This document shows positions 4,764-59,586 of a stretch of 64,000 nt of DNA, in pieces. Positions within the stretch are counted from its first letter, which is position 1. Each line of letters opens with the position of its first letter. The position numbers and the translations under genes were made by a program. Origin of the DNA: a virus; UHGV virus genome UHGV-1370141; one strand, 5' to 3'. The notes under the pieces are model-generated. The model searched no databases. It was given only the letters and a program-made list of their open reading frames with translations, and was not told where the DNA came from.

Positions 4764-5294
4764 TTAAGCAGTAAAACCGTCCAATTCACCGTTGGTGGTG
4801 GCCAGGTCAATACGATTATCGACAACCTTCGGTGTAATTACGAAAGTTGCCATTACACCCGGTTTATAACGGAGGTTCTGTTCAGTAACGGTGCACGTCA
4901 CGGTACGCAGAGTGACGTTTTCATGTTCGTCTTTCTGGTCTTCGGTGCTGTACACAACGTCACCTGGCGCGATAGCGTCGTCAGGTTTTACTTTGTTGAT
5001 GTAATATTGTAACCAAGCGCGGAGTTCGTTTTCTTGAACCCAGCGAGACAGATCATCAGTTAGTTCAATCCGTCCTACAACACCTGGCTCCAGACGATCG
5101 TAATGCAGTTCGATTGCACCTTTGAAATTCTCAGAACCTGGTAGTGCAGTCATGGTAACTTTGGTATTCTTACTTTCGCCTTCCAGCGCAGTAGGGAGAC
5201 CAAAGGACACTTCTTTATCAGTAATCTGATGTGGTAGCTCAGTGTTAGCAGCATTATAAAGCGCGACCAACATCATCTGGTTAGTAGCGGCCAT
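4764..5294 (-). CDS. hypothetical protein, probably abundant virion protein
   Basis: 176-aa ORF with codon usage that looks strongly biased; C-terminus ...GELDGFTA is shared with the upstream paralog. Confidence 0.55.
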   Translation of the reverse strand: MAATNQMMLVALYNAANTELPHQITDKEVSFGLPTALEGESKNTKVTMTALPGSENFKGAIELHYDRLEPGVVGRIELTDDLSRWVQENELRAWLQYYINKVKPDDAIAPGDVVYSTEDQKDEHENVTLRTVTCTVTEQNLRYKPGVMATFVITPKVVDNRIDLATTNGELDGFTA

Positions 5295-5343
5295 TATCTT
5301 AGGTCCTTAATAGAACAAGTTAGAGAAATATCGGGGGAGGTCA

Positions 5344-5353
5344 CCCCCCCCCC
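5344..5353. repeat. homopolymeric C10/G10 tract in conserved TCACC-Cn-GATT context
   Basis: Ten consecutive C inside a G/C hairpin about 50 nt upstream of the start of 4764..5294. Confidence 0.6.
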
Positions 5354-5365
5354 GATTTAACTTAC

Positions 5366-5938
5366 TTAGCCACCGACACCCGGCGCAGTGAAGCCATCAA
5401 GTTCACCTTCCAGACCGCCCAGTGCTACCTTCTCAGGAGCTGGGTTGGAATAAGTGAAAGTAGCAATAGTACCCGCCAGGAATTTAATGTGGCCATCGTT
5501 TACTTTGACAGTGTAAACTTTAGCACCGCTGTCGCCTTCGGATTTAACGATAGTGAGTTCGCTCTCTGCAAACGCGTCATCGACATAACCTTTAGTAACC
5601 ATTTCTTTGTTCAGTTTGGTTACAATGGCAGAGTTTTCCAGATCGAGACTACCAGCTTGTTCGTAAGCTTTAGCACCGATCAGGTCTTGGGATGCCAGAC
5701 GGATATAATGGAATTCTTTCTCGCCTTTGAAGTTCTGGCTTTCTGCCTTGGCGGTCAGTGTAATTTTGGTGTTACGACCAGCGTCTCCGCTGTGCGCTTC
5801 GACAGCACCAAAATCGACATCACCAACCGTCAGATTAGAAGCGGTTGCAGAGTTTTTAGCAATTACAGCTTCGATGAGCTGTTGTTTGAAGGCTTTAGCC
5901 ATCTTTTTTACCTCGTAAGTGGTAGGGGTGGATTGCAT
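5366..5938 (-). CDS. hypothetical protein, paralog of 4764..5294
   Basis: 190-aa ORF ending ...LEGELDGFTAPGVGG; similar central NFKG..HY.RL block; biased codons. Confidence 0.55.
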   Translation of the reverse strand: MQSTPTTYEVKKMAKAFKQQLIEAVIAKNSATASNLTVGDVDFGAVEAHSGDAGRNTKITLTAKAESQNFKGEKEFHYIRLASQDLIGAKAYEQAGSLDLENSAIVTKLNKEMVTKGYVDDAFAESELTIVKSEGDSGAKVYTVKVNDGHIKFLAGTIATFTYSNPAPEKVALGGLEGELDGFTAPGVGG

Positions 5939-8520: not shown

Positions 8521-8564
8521 TCTTTTACACAAAAAAGAAAAGAGGGTGGGGATTACCCCCACCC
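8521..8564 (-). terminator. terminator hairpin (ATTA-loop family)
   Basis: agggtgggg-atta-cccccaccct inverted repeat with a T-rich tract following on the minus strand, after the gene ending at 8570. Confidence 0.55.
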
Positions 8565-8569
8565 TGTAA

Positions 8570-9049
8570 TTATTTTTTCTTCTTAGCGCGTGATGGCTTA
8601 GCTGGCGGTGTTTCAACAGCCGGTTTACGTGCAACACGCACTGTAAAACCACCAACCCAGGTCAGACACTCAGGACGGAAGAAAATACCGTGTTCGATTG
8701 CGCTACCGTCCAACGGTAACTCACCAACCTGTTCTACCCATACATCGTCTTCTGTAAGGGTTAGGCTATACTGTTCGTTAATTACGGGCAGTAGGTCAGC
8801 GGTAGTCGTTGCAGACTCCACTAACAGTTTCGGTAATACGTTCAGGAAATACAAACCTGCGTCAATGCGGTTATACTGGAACGTTTGTTCGTTAGTGTAA
8901 CCGAGATTCTTAATTGACGCAACTGTGATTTCGGTATTGTACGTACCGGTGGTTACGACCGGGTCACCCAGCGTGACTTTGGTGGTGTCGAACTCAGCGT
9001 CTGGGTTAGCCTTTTTAATAAGGTCGAAGATAGTTTCTTGATTGGTCAT
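8570..9049 (-). CDS. hypothetical protein
   Basis: 159-aa ORF in the minus-strand block, lysine-rich C-terminus; no motif. Confidence 0.5.
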   Translation of the reverse strand: MTNQETIFDLIKKANPDAEFDTTKVTLGDPVVTTGTYNTEITVASIKNLGYTNEQTFQYNRIDAGLYFLNVLPKLLVESATTTADLLPVINEQYSLTLTEDDVWVEQVGELPLDGSAIEHGIFFRPECLTWVGGFTVRVARKPAVETPPAKPSRAKKKK

Positions 9050-9062
9050 TACTGTAATCCTC

Positions 9063-9911
9063 TTAATCTAAGAATCCCGGTAAGACCGGATTAGTCTGCG
9101 CTAATTCAATCTTCGACTTCGGACGATCGGTGCCGTTAAAGTGGATTAACAGATTACCGGTCAGGTTAGAACACAGCGGGCTGAGCGTCAGCACCAACAC
9201 ACGCGTGAACTTCGTATTTGCGCCTTCGTAACCTGCGGTTGGACCATCGTAAATAATCTTCGCACCATACAGGTTGTTAGCCGCGTTCTTAGGTACACTT
9301 ACCCATTTCTCATCAACGACGTTAGCCAGTTTAGTGGCTAACTCAGCCAGGTCGACGGTGTCGTTGATAGTAATCGGGTCAAGGTAATCTTTTTCTGCGG
9401 TGAAATCAATCGGGTGAGAATAAACCGCAGCGTTACCTTTCTTAGTAGACGGATACTCTACCAGATTCTCTAATTGAGTAACTGGTAACAGTTCAGTCAG
9501 GTCAATAGGATCACGCAGCGTAAGTGTTACTACACCGCACCACTCGTAAGATTTCTCGTTAGCGGTAAGCTGATGGGTTTCACCTTCAACTTTTGCGTCA
9601 ACGATATCCGAGGGTAAAATATTTAGGTTGTATTTTGCGTTAATCGCATTAAGCAAATCCGATGCGGTTACCACACTGTCGTTACCGAACACCAACTCAC
9701 CGGTTAGGTAGTCAGGTAAATTACGACGGTGGTAAGTCACGGTTAAAGTAGTAGACTCATCGCCTTTGAGTTTAGAGGTCAGAACCACCTGGGTATCAAC
9801 CCCAGTACCGGTAGGTTCTCCGATATCAACATCACTGAAAGTCAACGGTGGACTAATATTGTTTTCAGTGTTGATGAGTTTTAGCAGTTTCTGTTTTGAC
9901 GTAAGAGACAT
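9063..9911 (-). CDS. hypothetical protein
   Basis: 282-aa ORF, tightly spaced with the downstream gene; no motif. Confidence 0.5.
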   Translation of the reverse strand: MSLTSKQKLLKLINTENNISPPLTFSDVDIGEPTGTGVDTQVVLTSKLKGDESTTLTVTYHRRNLPDYLTGELVFGNDSVVTASDLLNAINAKYNLNILPSDIVDAKVEGETHQLTANEKSYEWCGVVTLTLRDPIDLTELLPVTQLENLVEYPSTKKGNAAVYSHPIDFTAEKDYLDPITINDTVDLAELATKLANVVDEKWVSVPKNAANNLYGAKIIYDGPTAGYEGANTKFTRVLVLTLSPLCSNLTGNLLIHFNGTDRPKSKIELAQTNPVLPGFLD

Positions 9912-10509: not shown

Positions 10510-10541
10510 TTTAATGCTCCTTTAGGTAAATACAATAATAG

Positions 10542-10561
10542 AGGGGTGGATTACCACCCCT
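10542..10561 (-). other. intergenic hairpin (ATTA-loop family)
   Basis: aggggtgg-atta-ccacccct, related to the hairpin at 8543-8564; no clear T-run, so it may be an RNA stability or processing element. Confidence 0.4.
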
Positions 10562-10585
10562 TGGTTGAATTTAGAACGTCGTTAA

Positions 10586-13258: not shown

Positions 13259-13299
13259 GTGAGAGCTTTCGTACTCTCACCTAAGTAATATATATCTGA
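13259..13299 (-). promoter_or_regulatory. conserved promoter-like motif plus 5' hairpin (copy 1)
   Basis: Hairpin gtgagag..ctctcac followed by ctaagtaatatatatctga, upstream of the gene starting at 13228; same architecture recurs at 16799-16844 and 37721-37769. Confidence 0.5.
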
Positions 13300-15411: not shown

Positions 15412-15453
15412 TTAATGCTCCTTTAGGTAAATAGTGGGGTAATTAAGCCTTCG

Positions 15454-16798: not shown

Positions 16799-16844
16799 GG
16801 AGTGAACGTAATTTTCACTCTCCCCTAGGTAATATATATCTGAG
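16799..16844 (-). promoter_or_regulatory. conserved promoter-like motif plus 5' hairpin (copy 2)
   Basis: Hairpin gagtgaa..ttcactc followed by ctaggtaatatatatctgag; located between the terminator at 16858-16884 and the gene start at 16751. Confidence 0.5.
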
Positions 16845-16890: not shown

Positions 16891-17511
16891 TTATTTCATT
16901 CCGTTCTGAGAAAGTGTTGTCCCTGCAAGATGCTTAATAACGATCTTGACAGGCAAATTACTATTCTCGTACTGTACTTCGGTTTCAGACAAATCGGTGA
17001 TATCGACAACTTTAGAAGGTACTTTCGCTAAGACAACCCGAATGGTGTGGGTTATCGTACTGGCTGTGGTCTTTGTATTACTAATGTAGAAGTACGCATC
17101 AATAATACCGCCGTCTTCTGCCAGATAAACCAATTTATTTTCCAACAGACACTGGGTATAAATTGACACTCCAGATAATTGCGAAATCCCCAGTCTATTA
17201 TTAACGTCAACTGTTGTTTTGCAGATTACCGCACCACCTGTCAACGTTTTTTCTACCACCATATTTCCCGATAAGGTTTTTGCATCCATTTTTGGTACAA
17301 TCGGATGAGTGCCGTCAACAAACAACCCATCGCTGTTAGACTTAAGGATGTTATTCGCCGACGGACTCACTGTAACCTCGCCACCCCCTAATTTCTCAAT
17401 CGGGAGTTGGTATTCAGTTTGTTCCTTAGACGCTAAGACTACTACACCCGTGATGTCTTCTGAAAGTGTCTCCAGTTCATGAATGCGCACCTTTCCTACC
17501 AGTTCAGCCAT
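16891..17511 (-). CDS. putative short tail fiber/receptor-binding protein with conserved N-terminal anchor domain
   Basis: N-terminus MAELVGKVRIHELETLSEDITGVVVLASKEQTEYQLPIEKL matches the N-termini of the long tail fiber (23767) and of 26851..27312. Confidence 0.55.
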   Translation of the reverse strand: MAELVGKVRIHELETLSEDITGVVVLASKEQTEYQLPIEKLGGGEVTVSPSANNILKSNSDGLFVDGTHPIVPKMDAKTLSGNMVVEKTLTGGAVICKTTVDVNNRLGISQLSGVSIYTQCLLENKLVYLAEDGGIIDAYFYISNTKTTASTITHTIRVVLAKVPSKVVDITDLSETEVQYENSNLPVKIVIKHLAGTTLSQNGMK

Positions 17512-18026
17512 TAGTGGCCTCCGAATGTTAAGACACGGTTATCTGCGGTAACGATTAAATCGTTGTCTTTTACTACAGCGGCTTCTTCATCGTTACCGAA
17601 AACCAGAACGGAGAATTGGCCTTTATAACCTAACGAGTTGGGTGAAACCTGTAACGTTACAGCGTCTTTCCCTACGGTAAATGATTCGTCGGTAAGATCG
17701 TCGGGTTGTAAATTACAACCACAAGCCGCGTTAATTCCGTCGATTAGATCGTGTGCGGTAAAGCCATTACCGGAAACCTTTACCAGAATAGGTTGCTGGT
17801 TTAACCACCGCTCTGCGGTTAAACGGTTGTAATAAATCTGTAACGTTCTGTTGTCCGGACGTTTTATCTTTACAACAGCAGTGGTGTCACGATCCATTTC
17901 GTTACTGGTCTTTACGTCGCTGACTTCAACCTCGTTCTCTTGCAGGTCGAGCTGGAGGTCATGGTTAACCAGTGAAATAACCATGTTAAGTGAAGTTAAC
18001 GACAAATCTGGCGTGAATTGTTCCAC
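17511..18026 (-). CDS. hypothetical protein (paralog of 27278..27841), tail fiber-associated
   Basis: N-terminal ..PDLSLTSLNMVISLVNHDLQLDL.. aligns with ..PDLSLTSAELVVALINHDNGLQL.. of 27278..27841; GTG start preceded by AGGAGG. Confidence 0.5.
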   Translation of the reverse strand: MEQFTPDLSLTSLNMVISLVNHDLQLDLQENEVEVSDVKTSNEMDRDTTAVVKIKRPDNRTLQIYYNRLTAERWLNQQPILVKVSGNGFTAHDLIDGINAACGCNLQPDDLTDESFTVGKDAVTLQVSPNSLGYKGQFSVLVFGNDEEAAVVKDNDLIVTADNRVLTFGGH

Positions 18027-18081
18027 GTATGGTTACCTCCTATGATTGGGGAGACGTAAAATGTTGGCTAAAAACATTTCA

Positions 18082-18090
18082 CCCCCCCCC
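18082..18090. repeat. homopolymeric C9/G9 tract in conserved TCACC-Cn-GATT context
   Basis: Nine consecutive C about 55 nt upstream of the start of 17511..18026; same context as the C10 tract at 5344-5353. Confidence 0.6.
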
Positions 18091-18124
18091 GATTACGTTT
18101 TCAAGCACACTCGCTTGAAAATTA

Positions 18125-18631
18125 TTAACTGATTTTGAAATCTCTTAACGTACCAGTTGATCTCATCACGTTTTGAAAAGCAGTGCTGATGTTATTAGTC
18201 CAGTAGTAATGCTGTCCGTTAATAACCTGCTGATAGGTCAGTGCGCAAGTGTTACCGCCTAGATTTACAGTGATGTTAGAGGCCCTGCCGCCTTGTAAGT
18301 AAACCGCTAAACTAGGCCTTGCGTTGCCAACTACCGTCGTTAACTGTAATTCGATACCTACTAAAGTTCCCACCCCGCAGTTACCCGCGTTTTGAATGGT
18401 CCCCTGATTTTTCTGGTTTAACGGCCAATTTGGTCCTACTGCGCCCCATTTCTTACCTAAAGAATCTCTATATGCGGCAGTTGCAATTTTACAGCCCATA
18501 GATCTTCCCACCATTTGACTCATCATAAAAGGTCTACTCAATCCTAATTTACTACCCGCAGCGCTCATCCACTGTTCGCCCGTTTCATTCCTAGCTGAAG
18601 ATCCGACCCATCCTGACGCTACCCCCCCCAT
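18125..18631 (-). CDS. Gly-rich tail fiber-associated protein (paralog of 18648..19286)
   Basis: N-terminus MGGVASGWVGSSARNETGEQWMSAAGSKLG aligns with the 212-aa neighbour; a G8 homopolymer spans the start codon and codons 2-3. Confidence 0.5.
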   Translation of the reverse strand: MGGVASGWVGSSARNETGEQWMSAAGSKLGLSRPFMMSQMVGRSMGCKIATAAYRDSLGKKWGAVGPNWPLNQKNQGTIQNAGNCGVGTLVGIELQLTTVVGNARPSLAVYLQGGRASNITVNLGGNTCALTYQQVINGQHYYWTNNISTAFQNVMRSTGTLRDFKIS

Positions 18632-18647
18632 CTACCCTCCTTTTTAA

Positions 18648-19286
18648 TTAAACACGTGAACCGTATATTGCACCTACTGCGTCCCATCTTGGCGCATTAC
18701 CAGTAACAGCTTTACCAGCTGCTCCGCCGTTATATTCTGTACCGTTACCATGAGTATTACATCTTCCTCCAGCAGCACCGACATTACCACCCGAACCGCC
18801 TGTATATGCACTAAGAGACCCCTCACCAACAGATCCTCTACCAGGAGCGGAAATAGTACCAGCAGCTGCACCGGAACTCATATGAGAGGAAGACCCACCA
18901 GCACCGCCTGGCGAGTTAGAACCACCGTTGCCTCCTCTGCCGTATACTGTAACCCCAGGATTGATGATGAGTGTAATATACGAATTTGGAAGATTGCTAG
19001 GGAATTCTAAACAAGGAACCCCGCTACTATAAGACACTAAATCCCCTGTAATGGTCACAACGACAGCAGTAGAGCCTAAAGAACGTAAATAGTTAATAAG
19101 AGTATCCTTATTATAGCTATGGTTAGCACCAATAGAATAATGGACCTCTTTTGATTTTCCCGCCAATTGCGACATCCAGCCTGGAACCGGCACACCAAGT
19201 GTGCGCATCGCGCCAGACATCCATTCGTTACCAGCTTCAGCTTTTGCTGAAGAACCAATCCAACCACCTACGCCGACAACTGCCAC
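18648..19286 (-). CDS. Gly-rich tail fiber-associated protein
   Basis: 212 aa with long Gly/Ser/Ala tracts (GGNGGSNSPGGAGGSS...); GTG start overlapping the tail fiber stop by 1 nt. Confidence 0.5.
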   Translation of the reverse strand: MAVVGVGGWIGSSAKAEAGNEWMSGAMRTLGVPVPGWMSQLAGKSKEVHYSIGANHSYNKDTLINYLRSLGSTAVVVTITGDLVSYSSGVPCLEFPSNLPNSYITLIINPGVTVYGRGGNGGSNSPGGAGGSSSHMSSGAAAGTISAPGRGSVGEGSLSAYTGGSGGNVGAAGGRCNTHGNGTEYNGGAAGKAVTGNAPRWDAVGAIYGSRV

Positions 19287-23800: not shown

Positions 23801-23824
23801 TGGGGGAGGTAAGCACCTCCCCCA
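23801..23824 (-). other. intergenic G5/C5 hairpin
   Basis: tgggggaggt-aagc-acctccccca between the 1001-aa gene stop and the tail fiber start; no clear T-run. Confidence 0.35.
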
Positions 23825-37720: not shown

Positions 37721-37769
37721 GTCGTAAAAGAGATTACGATGTAATCTCACTAAGGTAATATATATCTGA
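37721..37769 (-). promoter_or_regulatory. conserved promoter-like motif plus 5' hairpin (copy 3)
   Basis: Hairpin gagattac-gat-gtaatctc followed by ctaaggtaatatatatctgag; located between the tmk terminator and the HTH gene start. Confidence 0.5.
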
Positions 37770-39112: not shown

Positions 39113-39214
39113 AATTTATCTCTCTTTTCTAAATTGGTGAGTTACCGACTCACTACGGTTGTCACATTGATAATATCAGTCTGTAATAAATTTTAGGATA
39201 AAAAAAGAAACCCG

Positions 39215-59445: not shown

Positions 59446-59586
59446 GTAGGGGCCAGATTAAGTTTTAATAATGGTACATATCTTTAGTCTTAAATGTATT
59501 TTTTCCATAAAGTCTCCTTTAAACCAACTGACAGTCTCCCTTTGATAATATCTATCCAAAAAATAATAGAAAGAAAAAAATAAAAG

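What the first reader, a model, noticed from the sequence alone, without database searches (positions are those of the whole stretch)
5331..5356. Conserved TCACC-poly(C)-GATT element with long homopolymers upstream of two genes
A C10 run at 5344-5353 and a C9 run at 18082-18090 sit in the same local context (tcacc-Cn-gatt) about 50-55 nt upstream of the starts of 4764..5294 and 17511..18026. Homopolymers of this length are prone to slipped-strand length variation, so they could modulate expression of a virion/tail-fibre-associated gene, or be a recognition site.
Basis: seen in the sequence. Interest (0 to 1): 0.6.

Follow-up and report, generated by a model that had tools for sequence, protein, structure and literature searches.

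The report
G-run arms of intergenic terminator-like hairpins
The two long C/G runs are real, but each is one arm of a stable hairpin between genes of a phiKZ-like jumbo phage, most likely a transcription terminator or mRNA punctuation signal, and predicted hairpin stability does not change over the tract lengths seen, so they are probably not expression switches.

Summary
C10 lies at 5344-5353 and C9 at 18082-18090, with shared flanks TCA…GATT, 49 and 55 nt upstream of two DUF7941 virion-protein genes. The genes are on the minus strand, so the transcripts carry AATC-G(9/10)-TGA.

Each G run is the 5' arm of a strong hairpin whose 3' arm is a pyrimidine run (CCUCCCCC or UCUCCCC).
- Site 1 is terminator-like. 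It has 11 bp and a U-rich tail, starts 9 nt after a stop codon, and is a near-copy of the terminator-like hairpin at 23801-23824.
- Site 2 is a 43-nt hairpin ending 6 nt before the ribosome-binding site, with no U tail.

In nine related genomes the tracts vary (9-11 at site 1; 5-10 and often interrupted at site 2), but every variant still folds. Predicted stability is flat from 9 to 14 G. More distant relatives carry unrelated hairpins, or none, at the same positions.

No promoter brackets either tract, so a phase-variable switch is not supported for these two.

It is a G8 run that begins with the G of the start codon of a second gp38-type adhesin gene (18622-18629). It is G5 in most relatives and G9, out of frame, in one.

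The parts
5344..5353 (-). G10 tract on the transcript (C10 on the + strand). It forms the 5' arm plus part of the loop of the site-1 hairpin.
5330..5356 (-). Site-1 hairpin AUCGGGGGGGG[GGUGA]CCUCCCCCGAU. It has 11 pairs (8 G-C, one G-U) and begins 9 nt after the stop codon of gene 5366..5938.
   Evidence: flags it as terminator-like. One search gives dG -23.3 kcal/mol and z -2.9.
5320..5329 (-). U-rich tail AUUUCUCUAA following the site-1 hairpin.
18082..18090 (-). G9 tract on the transcript, forming the 5' arm of site-2 hairpin B.
18048..18090 (-). Site-2 hairpin B. G7 pairs with UCUCCCC around a 10-bp inner stem (GUGAAAUGUU/AACAUUUUAC). It ends 6 nt (AAUCAU) before the AGGAGG ribosome-binding site and has no U tail.
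   Evidence: One search gives dG -25.1 and z -3.7. One search shows that all 8 relatives fold likewise.
18098..18121 (-). Hairpin A (UUUUCAAGC-GAGUGU-GCUUGAAAA), directly after the stop codon of gene 18125..18631. It is absent in the L006 and L008 relatives.
23801..23824 (-). Terminator-like hairpin UGGGGGAGGU-GCUU-ACCUCCCCCA followed by GAUCUUUU. It is the closest paralogue of the site-1 hairpin, with the same 3' arm and tail, and carries an A where site 1 has G.
4764..5294 (-). Gene downstream of site 1, a DUF7941 / phrog_4862 virion protein of 176 aa.
5366..5938 (-). Gene upstream of site 1, a paralogous DUF7941 / phrog_4862 protein of 190 aa. The hairpin follows its stop codon.
17511..18026 (-). 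Gene downstream of site 2, a DUF7941 virion structural protein of 171 aa. It is followed by a 206-aa fibre-like gene (16891..17511).
18125..18631 (-). Gene upstream of site 2, the second gp38-type adhesin (Gp38_N domain, 168 aa).
18622..18629 (-). Third tract, a G8 run whose first G is the G of the adhesin's ATG (AUG GGG GGG GUA). It is in frame here.

Best explanation
Each homopolymer is the G-rich 5' arm of an intergenic RNA hairpin in a phiKZ/SPN3US-like jumbo phage.

The 3' arms are pyrimidine runs (CCUCCCCC at site 1, UCUCCCC at site 2). G pairs with both C and U, so an all-G arm pairs fully. About 8-9 G are needed to saturate the stem.

Site 1 works as an intrinsic terminator or attenuator at the end of gene 5366..5938. 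It belongs to the same sequence family as the hairpin at 23801-23824. It resembles the homopurine/homopyrimidine-armed terminators mapped experimentally in phiKZ.

Site 2 is a related hairpin with a longer stem and no U tail. It lies just before the ribosome-binding site of gene 17511..18026. It most likely acts as transcript punctuation: a weak terminator, a processing site or an mRNA-stabilising structure.

Polymerase slippage makes the tracts drift in length between strains. Surplus G simply enlarges the loop (site 1) or overhangs the 5' side (site 2), so this drift is functionally buffered.

Shown: the hairpins, their conservation, the length polymorphism and the flat predicted energy. Inferred: termination or stabilisation, and the origin of the tracts by A-to-G change followed by slippage.
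For: 1. Folding. Both tracts are hairpin arms (-23.3 and -25.1 kcal/mol, z -2.9 and -3.7). Site 1 is among the top terminator-like hits of the scan.

2. Family resemblance in the window.
- Many intergenic gaps hold G-/C-armed hairpins followed by T runs.
- A strict search for pure-purine arms finds only site 1 and 23801-23824 on the coding strand. They share ACCUCCCCC followed, one base later in the second, by GAU and a U-rich tail. About 0.03 such hairpins are expected per shuffled window.

3. Relatives.
- Seven genomes with the site-1 hairpin have G9, G10 or G11, all with the same stem.
- Eight site-2 variants with different inner sequences, several with interrupted G runs, all fold with a G/C base.

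4. Length buffering. Predicted dG reaches a plateau at n = 9 for both sites and stays flat to n = 14. With n = 9, site 1 closes with a GUGA or GUAA (GNRA) tetraloop.

5. Positional analogues without G runs.
- L130 has AAGGCGG-UAAAU-CCGCCUU after the homologue of 5366..5938.
- SPN3US has a classical hairpin plus T8 directly before its DUF7941 gene gp144.

6. Selection on such stems. The hairpin at 8543-8565 shows a matched G5/C4 to G4/C3 double deletion in L131 and L133.

7. Literature. phiKZ has 61 mapped intrinsic terminators sharing the motif BCCYCCCCHWWDGGGRRGGBYTTAT (PMC10914365). Phage 201phi2-1 likewise has conserved terminator motifs (PMC11512511).
Against: - Site 2 has no U tract, so it fails the classical terminator definition.
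- The site-1 tail (AUAUUUCUCU) is weak.
- The arm order (G arm first) is the reverse of the published phiKZ motif.
- No transcript 3' ends are available for this phage.
- Formal covariation at site 2 is weak: the MAFFT alignment shows no pair with changes on both sides.
- AATC is conserved just 5' of the hairpin at site 2 in two unrelated upstream contexts, and the structure does not explain it.
- The bimodal run-length census (none of 6-7 nt, three of 8 nt or more) hints that long runs could be maintained for a reason other than pairing.
Confidence: 0.6

Rival explanations
1. Contingency loci. The intergenic G tracts are hypermutable switches or rheostats. Slippage changes terminator strength or 5'-UTR structure and so tunes expression of the downstream DUF7941 and fibre genes. 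They would act together with the coding tract at the adhesin start.
For: - Tract length differs among close relatives.
- Runs of 8 nt or more are enriched while runs of 6-7 nt are absent.
- All three runs lie in the virion and host-recognition gene region.
- Predicted hairpin energy falls by 2-3 kcal/mol per G lost below n = 9.
- The coding tract shows an in-frame versus out-of-frame difference between the window and L129.
- There is precedent: polyG tracts in receptor-binding genes of Campylobacter phages (Sorensen 2021, cited in PMC10579305) and contingency loci in T2 and T4 (10.1101/2025.10.21.683753).
Against: - No promoter elements flank the tracts.
- Energy is flat over the whole observed range of pure tracts.
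- Site-2 tracts are interrupted by A in five of nine genomes without loss of the hairpin.
- Relatives manage with an unrelated hairpin or none.
- One-nucleotide indels between the window and L129 also occur in ordinary A/T runs in intergenic DNA.
Confidence: 0.12
2. Five-prime stabiliser or processing element (mainly site 2). The polycistronic mRNA is cut in the single-stranded AAUC just upstream, or transcription starts there. The hairpin then forms the protective 5' end of the DUF7941 and fibre mRNA.
For: - Hairpin B stays with the downstream gene in L006 and L008, where the upstream sequence is unrelated right up to AATC.
- It ends 6 nt before the ribosome-binding site and lacks a U tail.
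- Promoter-like sites elsewhere in the window are followed by G-rich 5' hairpins.
- AATC is almost invariant across relatives.
Against: - In L007 the same hairpin follows the adhesin gene but precedes a different gene, so it is not tied to the downstream gene.
- No promoter motif lies upstream in the window.
- There are no RNA-end data.
Confidence: 0.18
3. Conserved intergenic linker that serves as a recombination junction for swapping host-recognition gene cassettes, in the manner of T4-type PeSL elements. Any RNA function would be secondary.
For: - At site 2, relatives differ upstream (L006, L008) or downstream (L007) of the hairpin, while its outer arms AATC-Gn and ACGUC(U)CCCC are retained.
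- PeSLs are described as mediating such shuffling (PMC2839356, PMC4122927).
Against: - Only about 20 nt are shared.
- There is no promoter component.
- There is no evidence at site 1.
- The pattern is equally expected if a functional hairpin is simply retained through recombination.
Confidence: 0.08

Closest known systems
Conserved intrinsic terminator motif of phage phiKZ (5'-BCCYCCCCHWWDGGGRRGGBYTTATKYYGT-3'; Putzeys et al. 2024, PMC10914365) and the related motifs of 201phi2-1 (PMC11512511)
   Same: - The phage lineage is the same: the window has a PhiKZ-type major capsid protein.
- The hairpins are intergenic, with a homopurine arm (GGGRRGG-like) and a homopyrimidine arm (CCYCCCC-like), a short A/U-rich loop and a T-rich tail containing TAT/TTT.
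- The same hairpin sequence recurs at several sites in one genome (5330-5356 and 23801-23824).
   Different: - The arm order is reversed, with the G arm first.
- The purine arm is a pure G homopolymer with a G-U pair and 1-3 surplus G.
- Site 2 has a 10-bp inner extension and no T tail.
- Termination has not been measured here.
PolyG contingency loci in phage receptor-binding genes (Campylobacter Fletchervirus; Sorensen et al. 2021 Cell Rep, cited in PMC10579305) and contingency loci in T2/T4 (Gomez et al. 2025, bioRxiv 10.1101/2025.10.21.683753)
   Same: - G runs of 8-10 nt lie in a host-recognition gene region.
- Tract length differs between related genomes.
- The third tract (18622-18629) lies inside a coding sequence, and a +1 variant is out of frame.
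   Different: - The two tracts of this finding are intergenic and structurally buffered.
- They are not in a reading frame or a promoter spacer.
- No within-population heterogeneity or phenotype has been shown.
PeSL promoter/stem-loop cassettes of T4-type phages (PMC2839356, PMC4122927)
   Same: They are short conserved intergenic stem-loops at the borders of gene cassettes that differ between related phages.
   Different: - No promoter motif is attached.
- The phage family and its RNA polymerases are different.
- Only two or three copies were seen.

Membership tests
Intrinsic (factor-independent) terminator | Stable G+C-rich stem-loop on the transcribed strand | tested here: met
   -23.3 kcal/mol for site 1 and -25.1 kcal/mol for site 2, with at most 1 of 200 shuffles folding as well. 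One search lists site 1 with 11 pairs, 8 of them G-C.
Intrinsic (factor-independent) terminator | U-rich tract immediately 3' of the stem | tested here: inconclusive
   Site 1 has AUUUCUCU (5 U of 8) and passes the scan, but this is weak. Site 2 has AAUCAUAGGAGG, with no U tract, so the feature is not met there.
Intrinsic (factor-independent) terminator | Lies downstream of a stop codon, in an intergenic gap between co-oriented genes | tested here: met
   The site-1 hairpin begins 9 nt after the TAA of 5366..5938. Site-2 hairpin B begins 34 nt after the stop of 18125..18631.
Intrinsic (factor-independent) terminator | Transcript 3' ends map to the tail | not testable with these tools
   No RNA data are available.
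phiKZ-type conserved terminator motif | CCYCCCC-HWWD-GGGRRGG hairpin followed by YTTAT, recurring across the genome | tested here: inconclusive
   Arm composition and recurrence are met. The arm order is reversed and the tail is GAUAUUU or GAUCUUU rather than YTTAT (motif from PMC10914365).
Phase-variable contingency locus (simple-sequence repeat) | Homopolymer long enough to slip (about 7-8 nt or more) | tested here: met
   G10 and G9.
Phase-variable contingency locus (simple-sequence repeat) | The tract sits in a reading frame or between promoter elements, so that a 1-nt change switches expression | tested here: not met
   Both tracts are intergenic. No sigma-70-like site and no phage promoter-like motif spans them. 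Predicted structure and energy are unchanged for n = 9-14. The feature is met only by the separate tract at 18622-18629.
Phase-variable contingency locus (simple-sequence repeat) | Length polymorphism among close relatives or within a population | tested here: met
   Among relatives, site 1 is G9, G10 or G11 and site 2 ranges from 5 to 10 G. Heterogeneity within a population is not testable here.
Phase-variable contingency locus (simple-sequence repeat) | Repeat purity is maintained | tested here: inconclusive
   Site 1 is pure in 7 of 7 genomes. Site 2 is interrupted by A in L129, L130, L132, L006 and L131.
PeSL-like promoter/stem-loop cassette | Promoter consensus joined to the stem-loop | tested here: not met
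   The window's promoter-like motif ATATTAC-N-G[GT]GAG has 5 hits, none at either site.
Intramolecular G-quadruplex | Four G tracts separated by loops | tested here: not met
   Each site has a single uninterrupted G run and no further G tracts nearby.
Any Rfam RNA family | Match to a covariance model | tested here: not met
   There is no hit at gathering score in the window. Locally there is nothing significant; the best is sraA at E = 0.97.

The most novel reading that the evidence does not exclude
The three G tracts form a set of contingency loci in the host-recognition gene region of an enterobacterial phiKZ-like jumbo phage.
- The coding tract at 18622-18629 would switch a second gp38-type adhesin on and off. 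It is G8 and in frame here, G9 and out of frame in SKEP01000003.1, and G5 in most relatives.
- Contractions of the intergenic tracts below 9 G would weaken the hairpins and alter read-through into the DUF7941 and fibre genes.
- Together these would give mixed virion populations with different receptor specificities.
Probability: 0.15. Interest if true: 0.6.

Novelty: new member of a known kind. Interest (0 to 1): 0.28.

Why it matters
As found, this matters mainly for annotation. Long G/C homopolymers in phage intergenic DNA can be nothing more than the arms of terminator-type hairpins. Length differences between strains do not then imply phase variation.

The finding also extends the observation of sequence-conserved, homopurine/homopyrimidine-armed terminators from Pseudomonas phiKZ-like phages to an enterobacterial relative.

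The more consequential lead is the coding G8/G9 tract at the start of a second gp38-type adhesin. If it switches, it would be an example of slippage-driven host-range bet-hedging in a jumbo phage of Salmonella or E. coli.

Tried and rejected
- **Megablast against INPHARED phages.** It found nothing useful: no hit for site 1 and a 150-nt hit for site 2. Relatives had to be found through proteins.
- **Exact-protein look-up of the 176-aa protein.** It found nothing.
- **RNAalifold on the eight site-2 variants.** It gave a consensus hairpin but no double-sided compensatory pairs. The inner stems differ in length and MAFFT misaligns them.
- **L132 (CYGL01000001.1).** It carries extra 10-nt runs, but several of its genes are split over frames, so its homopolymers were not used as evidence.
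- **Sigma-70 promoter spacer model.** It was rejected: no site brackets the tracts, and the phage belongs to the phiKZ lineage, which by the published work on phiKZ transcribes with its own polymerases.
- **Other models rejected from the sequence itself.** These were G-quadruplex, frameshift or fusion of adjacent ORFs, and a poly-G sequencing artefact. The tracts are reproduced in independent assemblies.

Full report
**Observation**

C10 lies at 5344-5353 and C9 at 18082-18090, both in the context TCA-Cn-GATT.

All neighbouring genes are on the minus strand. The transcripts therefore read AAUC-G10-UGA and AAUC-G9-UGA. The tracts end 49 and 55 nt before the start codons of 4764..5294 and 17511..18026.

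The runs are not chance.
- The window (44.6% G+C) has no G/C run of 6 or 7 nt, against about 8 expected.
- It has three runs of 8 nt or more, against about 0.36 expected.
- An independent Logan assembly (L135, ERR414475) is identical over 3.5 kb, including the G9 and G8 tracts.

**Genomic setting**

The window is the structural region of a phiKZ/SPN3US-like jumbo phage.
- It has a PhiKZ-type major capsid protein (PF25620), 79% identical to those of Erwinia and Salmonella jumbo phages.
- There is no close match by DNA in the phage collection.
- Related contigs are 220-228 kb long.
- Homologues of its adhesin are labelled Salmonella, E. coli and Shigella.

Both tracts precede DUF7941 virion-protein paralogues. 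Site 2 lies in a tail-fibre gene set. This set comprises a 1,493-aa long fibre, then two tandem gp38-type adhesins (18648..19286 and 18125..18631), then site 2, then the DUF7941 gene and a 206-aa fibre-like gene.

**What the tracts are**

Each G run is the 5' arm of a hairpin.

Site 1 folds as AUCGGGGGGGG[GGUGA]CCUCCCCCGAU.
- It has 11 pairs and a predicted energy of -23.3 kcal/mol.
- It begins 9 nt after the stop codon of 5366..5938.
- It is followed by AUUUCUCU.
- The terminator scan ranks it among the best in the first 20 kb.

Site 2 folds as G7 pairing with UCUCCCC around a 10-bp inner stem.
- It is 43 nt long, with predicted energy -25.1 kcal/mol and z -3.7.
- It ends 6 nt before the AGGAGG ribosome-binding site and has no U tail.
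- A separate hairpin directly after the adhesin stop codon precedes it.

**Comparison with other hairpins in the window**

Most intergenic gaps of the window carry G-/C-armed hairpins with UUCG, GNRA or UAAU loops and T-rich tails.

A strict search for pure-purine arms finds just two on the coding strand: site 1 and 23801-23824 (UGGGGGAGGU-GCUU-ACCUCCCCCA-GAUCUUUU). They share ACCUCCCCC followed, one base later in the second, by GAU and a U-rich tail. About 0.03 such hairpins are expected per shuffled window.

The second hairpin has A where site 1 has G opposite the U. This suggests that the homopolymer arose when an A-to-G change fused two G runs, leaving a G-U pair, and that the run then grew by slippage. 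This origin is an inference.

**Relatives**

Nine related genomes were recovered: L001-L008 and L129-L133.

At site 1:
- The tract is G9 in L001 and L129.
- It is G10 in the window, L002/L133, L131 and L132.
- It is G11 in L003.
- The stem is identical in all, and the loop is UGA or UAA.
- With G9 the loop is GUGA or GUAA, which is a GNRA tetraloop. This accounts for the T-R-A that follows the run.
- L004 and L130 carry an extra paralogue and lack the element. In L130 an unrelated hairpin (AAGGCGG-UAAAU-CCGCCUU) occupies the position after the homologue of 5366..5938.

At site 2:
- The arm is G9 in the window and G10 in L005 and L008.
- It is interrupted or short elsewhere: GAG7 (L129), GAG10 (L130), G5AG4 (L132), GGAG5 (L006), G5A (L131) and G6 (L007).
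- The inner sequences differ between genomes.
- All eight variants that were folded form a hairpin with a G/C base.
- L006 and L008 differ completely upstream of AATC. L007 differs downstream of the hairpin.
- In SPN3US the same position, directly before DUF7941 gene gp144, holds a classical hairpin plus T8.

The conserved feature is therefore the hairpin at a gene boundary, not the homopolymer.

**Does length matter?**

I refolded both sites with 3-14 G.

| Site | n = 7 | n = 8 | n = 9 | n = 10 to 14 |
|---|---|---|---|---|
| Site 1 dG (kcal/mol) | -19.5 | -22.0 | -24.3 | -23.5 to -24.5 |
| Site 2 dG (kcal/mol) | -21.8 | -24.4 | -27.5 | -27.4 to -28.5 |

- Surplus G goes into the loop at site 1 or overhangs the 5' side at site 2.
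- Every pure tract seen at site 1 lies on the plateau.
- No sigma-70-like site spans the tracts.
- No copy of the window's own promoter-like motif spans them either. That motif, ATATTAC-N-G[GT]GAG, has five hits, all on the coding strand.
- One-nucleotide differences between the window and its close relative L129 also fall in ordinary A/T runs in intergenic DNA.
- The hairpin at 8543-8565 shows a matched G5/C4 to G4/C3 double deletion in L131 and L133. This fits selection on stems combined with slippage in their arms.

**Comparison with what is known**

- In phiKZ, 61 experimentally mapped intrinsic terminators share BCCYCCCCHWWDGGGRRGGBYTTAT (PMC10914365). Phage 201phi2-1 has analogous conserved terminator motifs (PMC11512511).
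- The hairpins here have the same homopurine/homopyrimidine arm chemistry and recur in the genome. They differ in having the G arm first and an all-G arm.
- Membership of the classical terminator class is plausible for site 1, although its U tail is weak. It fails for site 2, which has no U tail.
- For site 2, a processing or 5'-stabilising role is a live alternative. So is a role as a retained junction between swapped gene cassettes, as in PeSLs (PMC2839356, PMC4122927).
- No Rfam family matches.

**The phase-variation idea**

Slippage-prone polyG tracts that switch receptor-binding genes are known in Campylobacter phages (Sorensen 2021, cited in PMC10579305). Contingency loci have been reported in T2 and T4 (bioRxiv 10.1101/2025.10.21.683753).

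The two intergenic tracts meet the length and polymorphism criteria. They fail the positional criterion, and the site-2 tract is not kept pure.

The third tract fits much better.
- The window reads AUG GGG GGG GUA (G8, in frame, protein starting MGGVASGW).
- Most relatives and database homologues have G5 (MGVASGW).
- L129 has G9. Its ATG opens a 13-codon frame (MGGGSVWMGRFFG*), and the adhesin body lies in another frame behind a stop codon.
- The other window genes compared to L129 show no frame breaks.
- This is either a natural OFF variant or a homopolymer assembly error. Read data are needed to decide.

**Verdict**

- The regulatory interpretation is not supported for these two tracts.
- They are best read as G-run arms of terminator-type intergenic hairpins, a new member of a known kind and of modest interest.
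- The coding tract at 18622-18629 is the lead worth pursuing.

Noticed in passing
window 18622-18629 (- strand), start of gene 18125..18631: A G8 run begins with the G of the ATG of a second gp38-type adhesin gene. It is in frame here, G5 in most relatives, and G9 (out of frame, 13-codon ORF) in L129/SKEP01000003.1. It is a candidate ON/OFF contingency locus.
   Followed up: partly
window 18125-19286 (- strand): Two tandem gp38-type adhesin genes follow the long tail-fibre gene of a phiKZ-like jumbo phage. The first (212 aa) lacks about 48 residues of the glycine-rich region that is present in L006 and L008 (260-263 aa). The deletion lies between GGAGG/GAGG repeats.
   Followed up: partly
window 13276-13291, 16820-16835, 37746-37761, 39161-39176, 59536-59551 (- strand): A promoter-like motif ATATTA(C/T)-N2-7-G(G/T)GA(G/C), often preceded by CAGATAT and followed by a G-rich 5' hairpin. 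It has five hits, all on the coding strand, against about 1 expected. Four of the five lie in intergenic gaps, usually just after a terminator hairpin.
   Followed up: partly
whole window: G/C runs of 6-7 nt are absent (about 8 expected) while three runs of 8-10 nt exist. This is a bimodal length distribution.
   Followed up: partly
window 8543-8565 (- strand) versus L131 and L133: The terminator hairpin GGGUGGGGG-UAAU-CCCCACCC has a matched double deletion (G5 to G4 and C4 to C3) in two relatives, which keeps the stem intact.
   Followed up: no
L132 1763-1772 and 6045-6054 (CYGL01000001.1); homologue of the second is window 15412-15453: L132 has an in-frame G10 inside a fibre-like gene with a GQSN esterase-type motif. 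It also has a C10 where the window has C4, about 30 nt upstream of a start codon. That assembly has several genes split over frames, so these runs may be sequencing errors.
   Followed up: partly
window 4764-5294, 5366-5938, 8570-9049, 9063-9911, 17511-18026 (- strand): The window has five paralogues of the DUF7941 / phrog_1037-2935-4862 group of virion proteins. Copy number varies, with an extra paralogue between the first two in L130 and L004.
   Followed up: partly
window 18091-18094 and 5354-5357; relatives L005-L008 and L129-L132: AATC immediately 5' of the G run is nearly invariant at both sites. At site 2 it is kept in two unrelated upstream contexts, and AATC also follows the hairpin there. 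The structure does not explain this.
   Followed up: no
protein P0002 (ENA contig of 1,547 nt): A homologue of the adhesin is frameshifted near its C terminus and reads into the site-2 G run, with its last residues NRGGG, so the called product stops inside the homopolymer. This may reflect an assembly break at the tract.
   Followed up: no
window 10510-10585 and 15412-15453 (- strand): The same ribosome-binding cassette TATTTACCTAAAGGAGCATTAA precedes two different genes.
   Followed up: no
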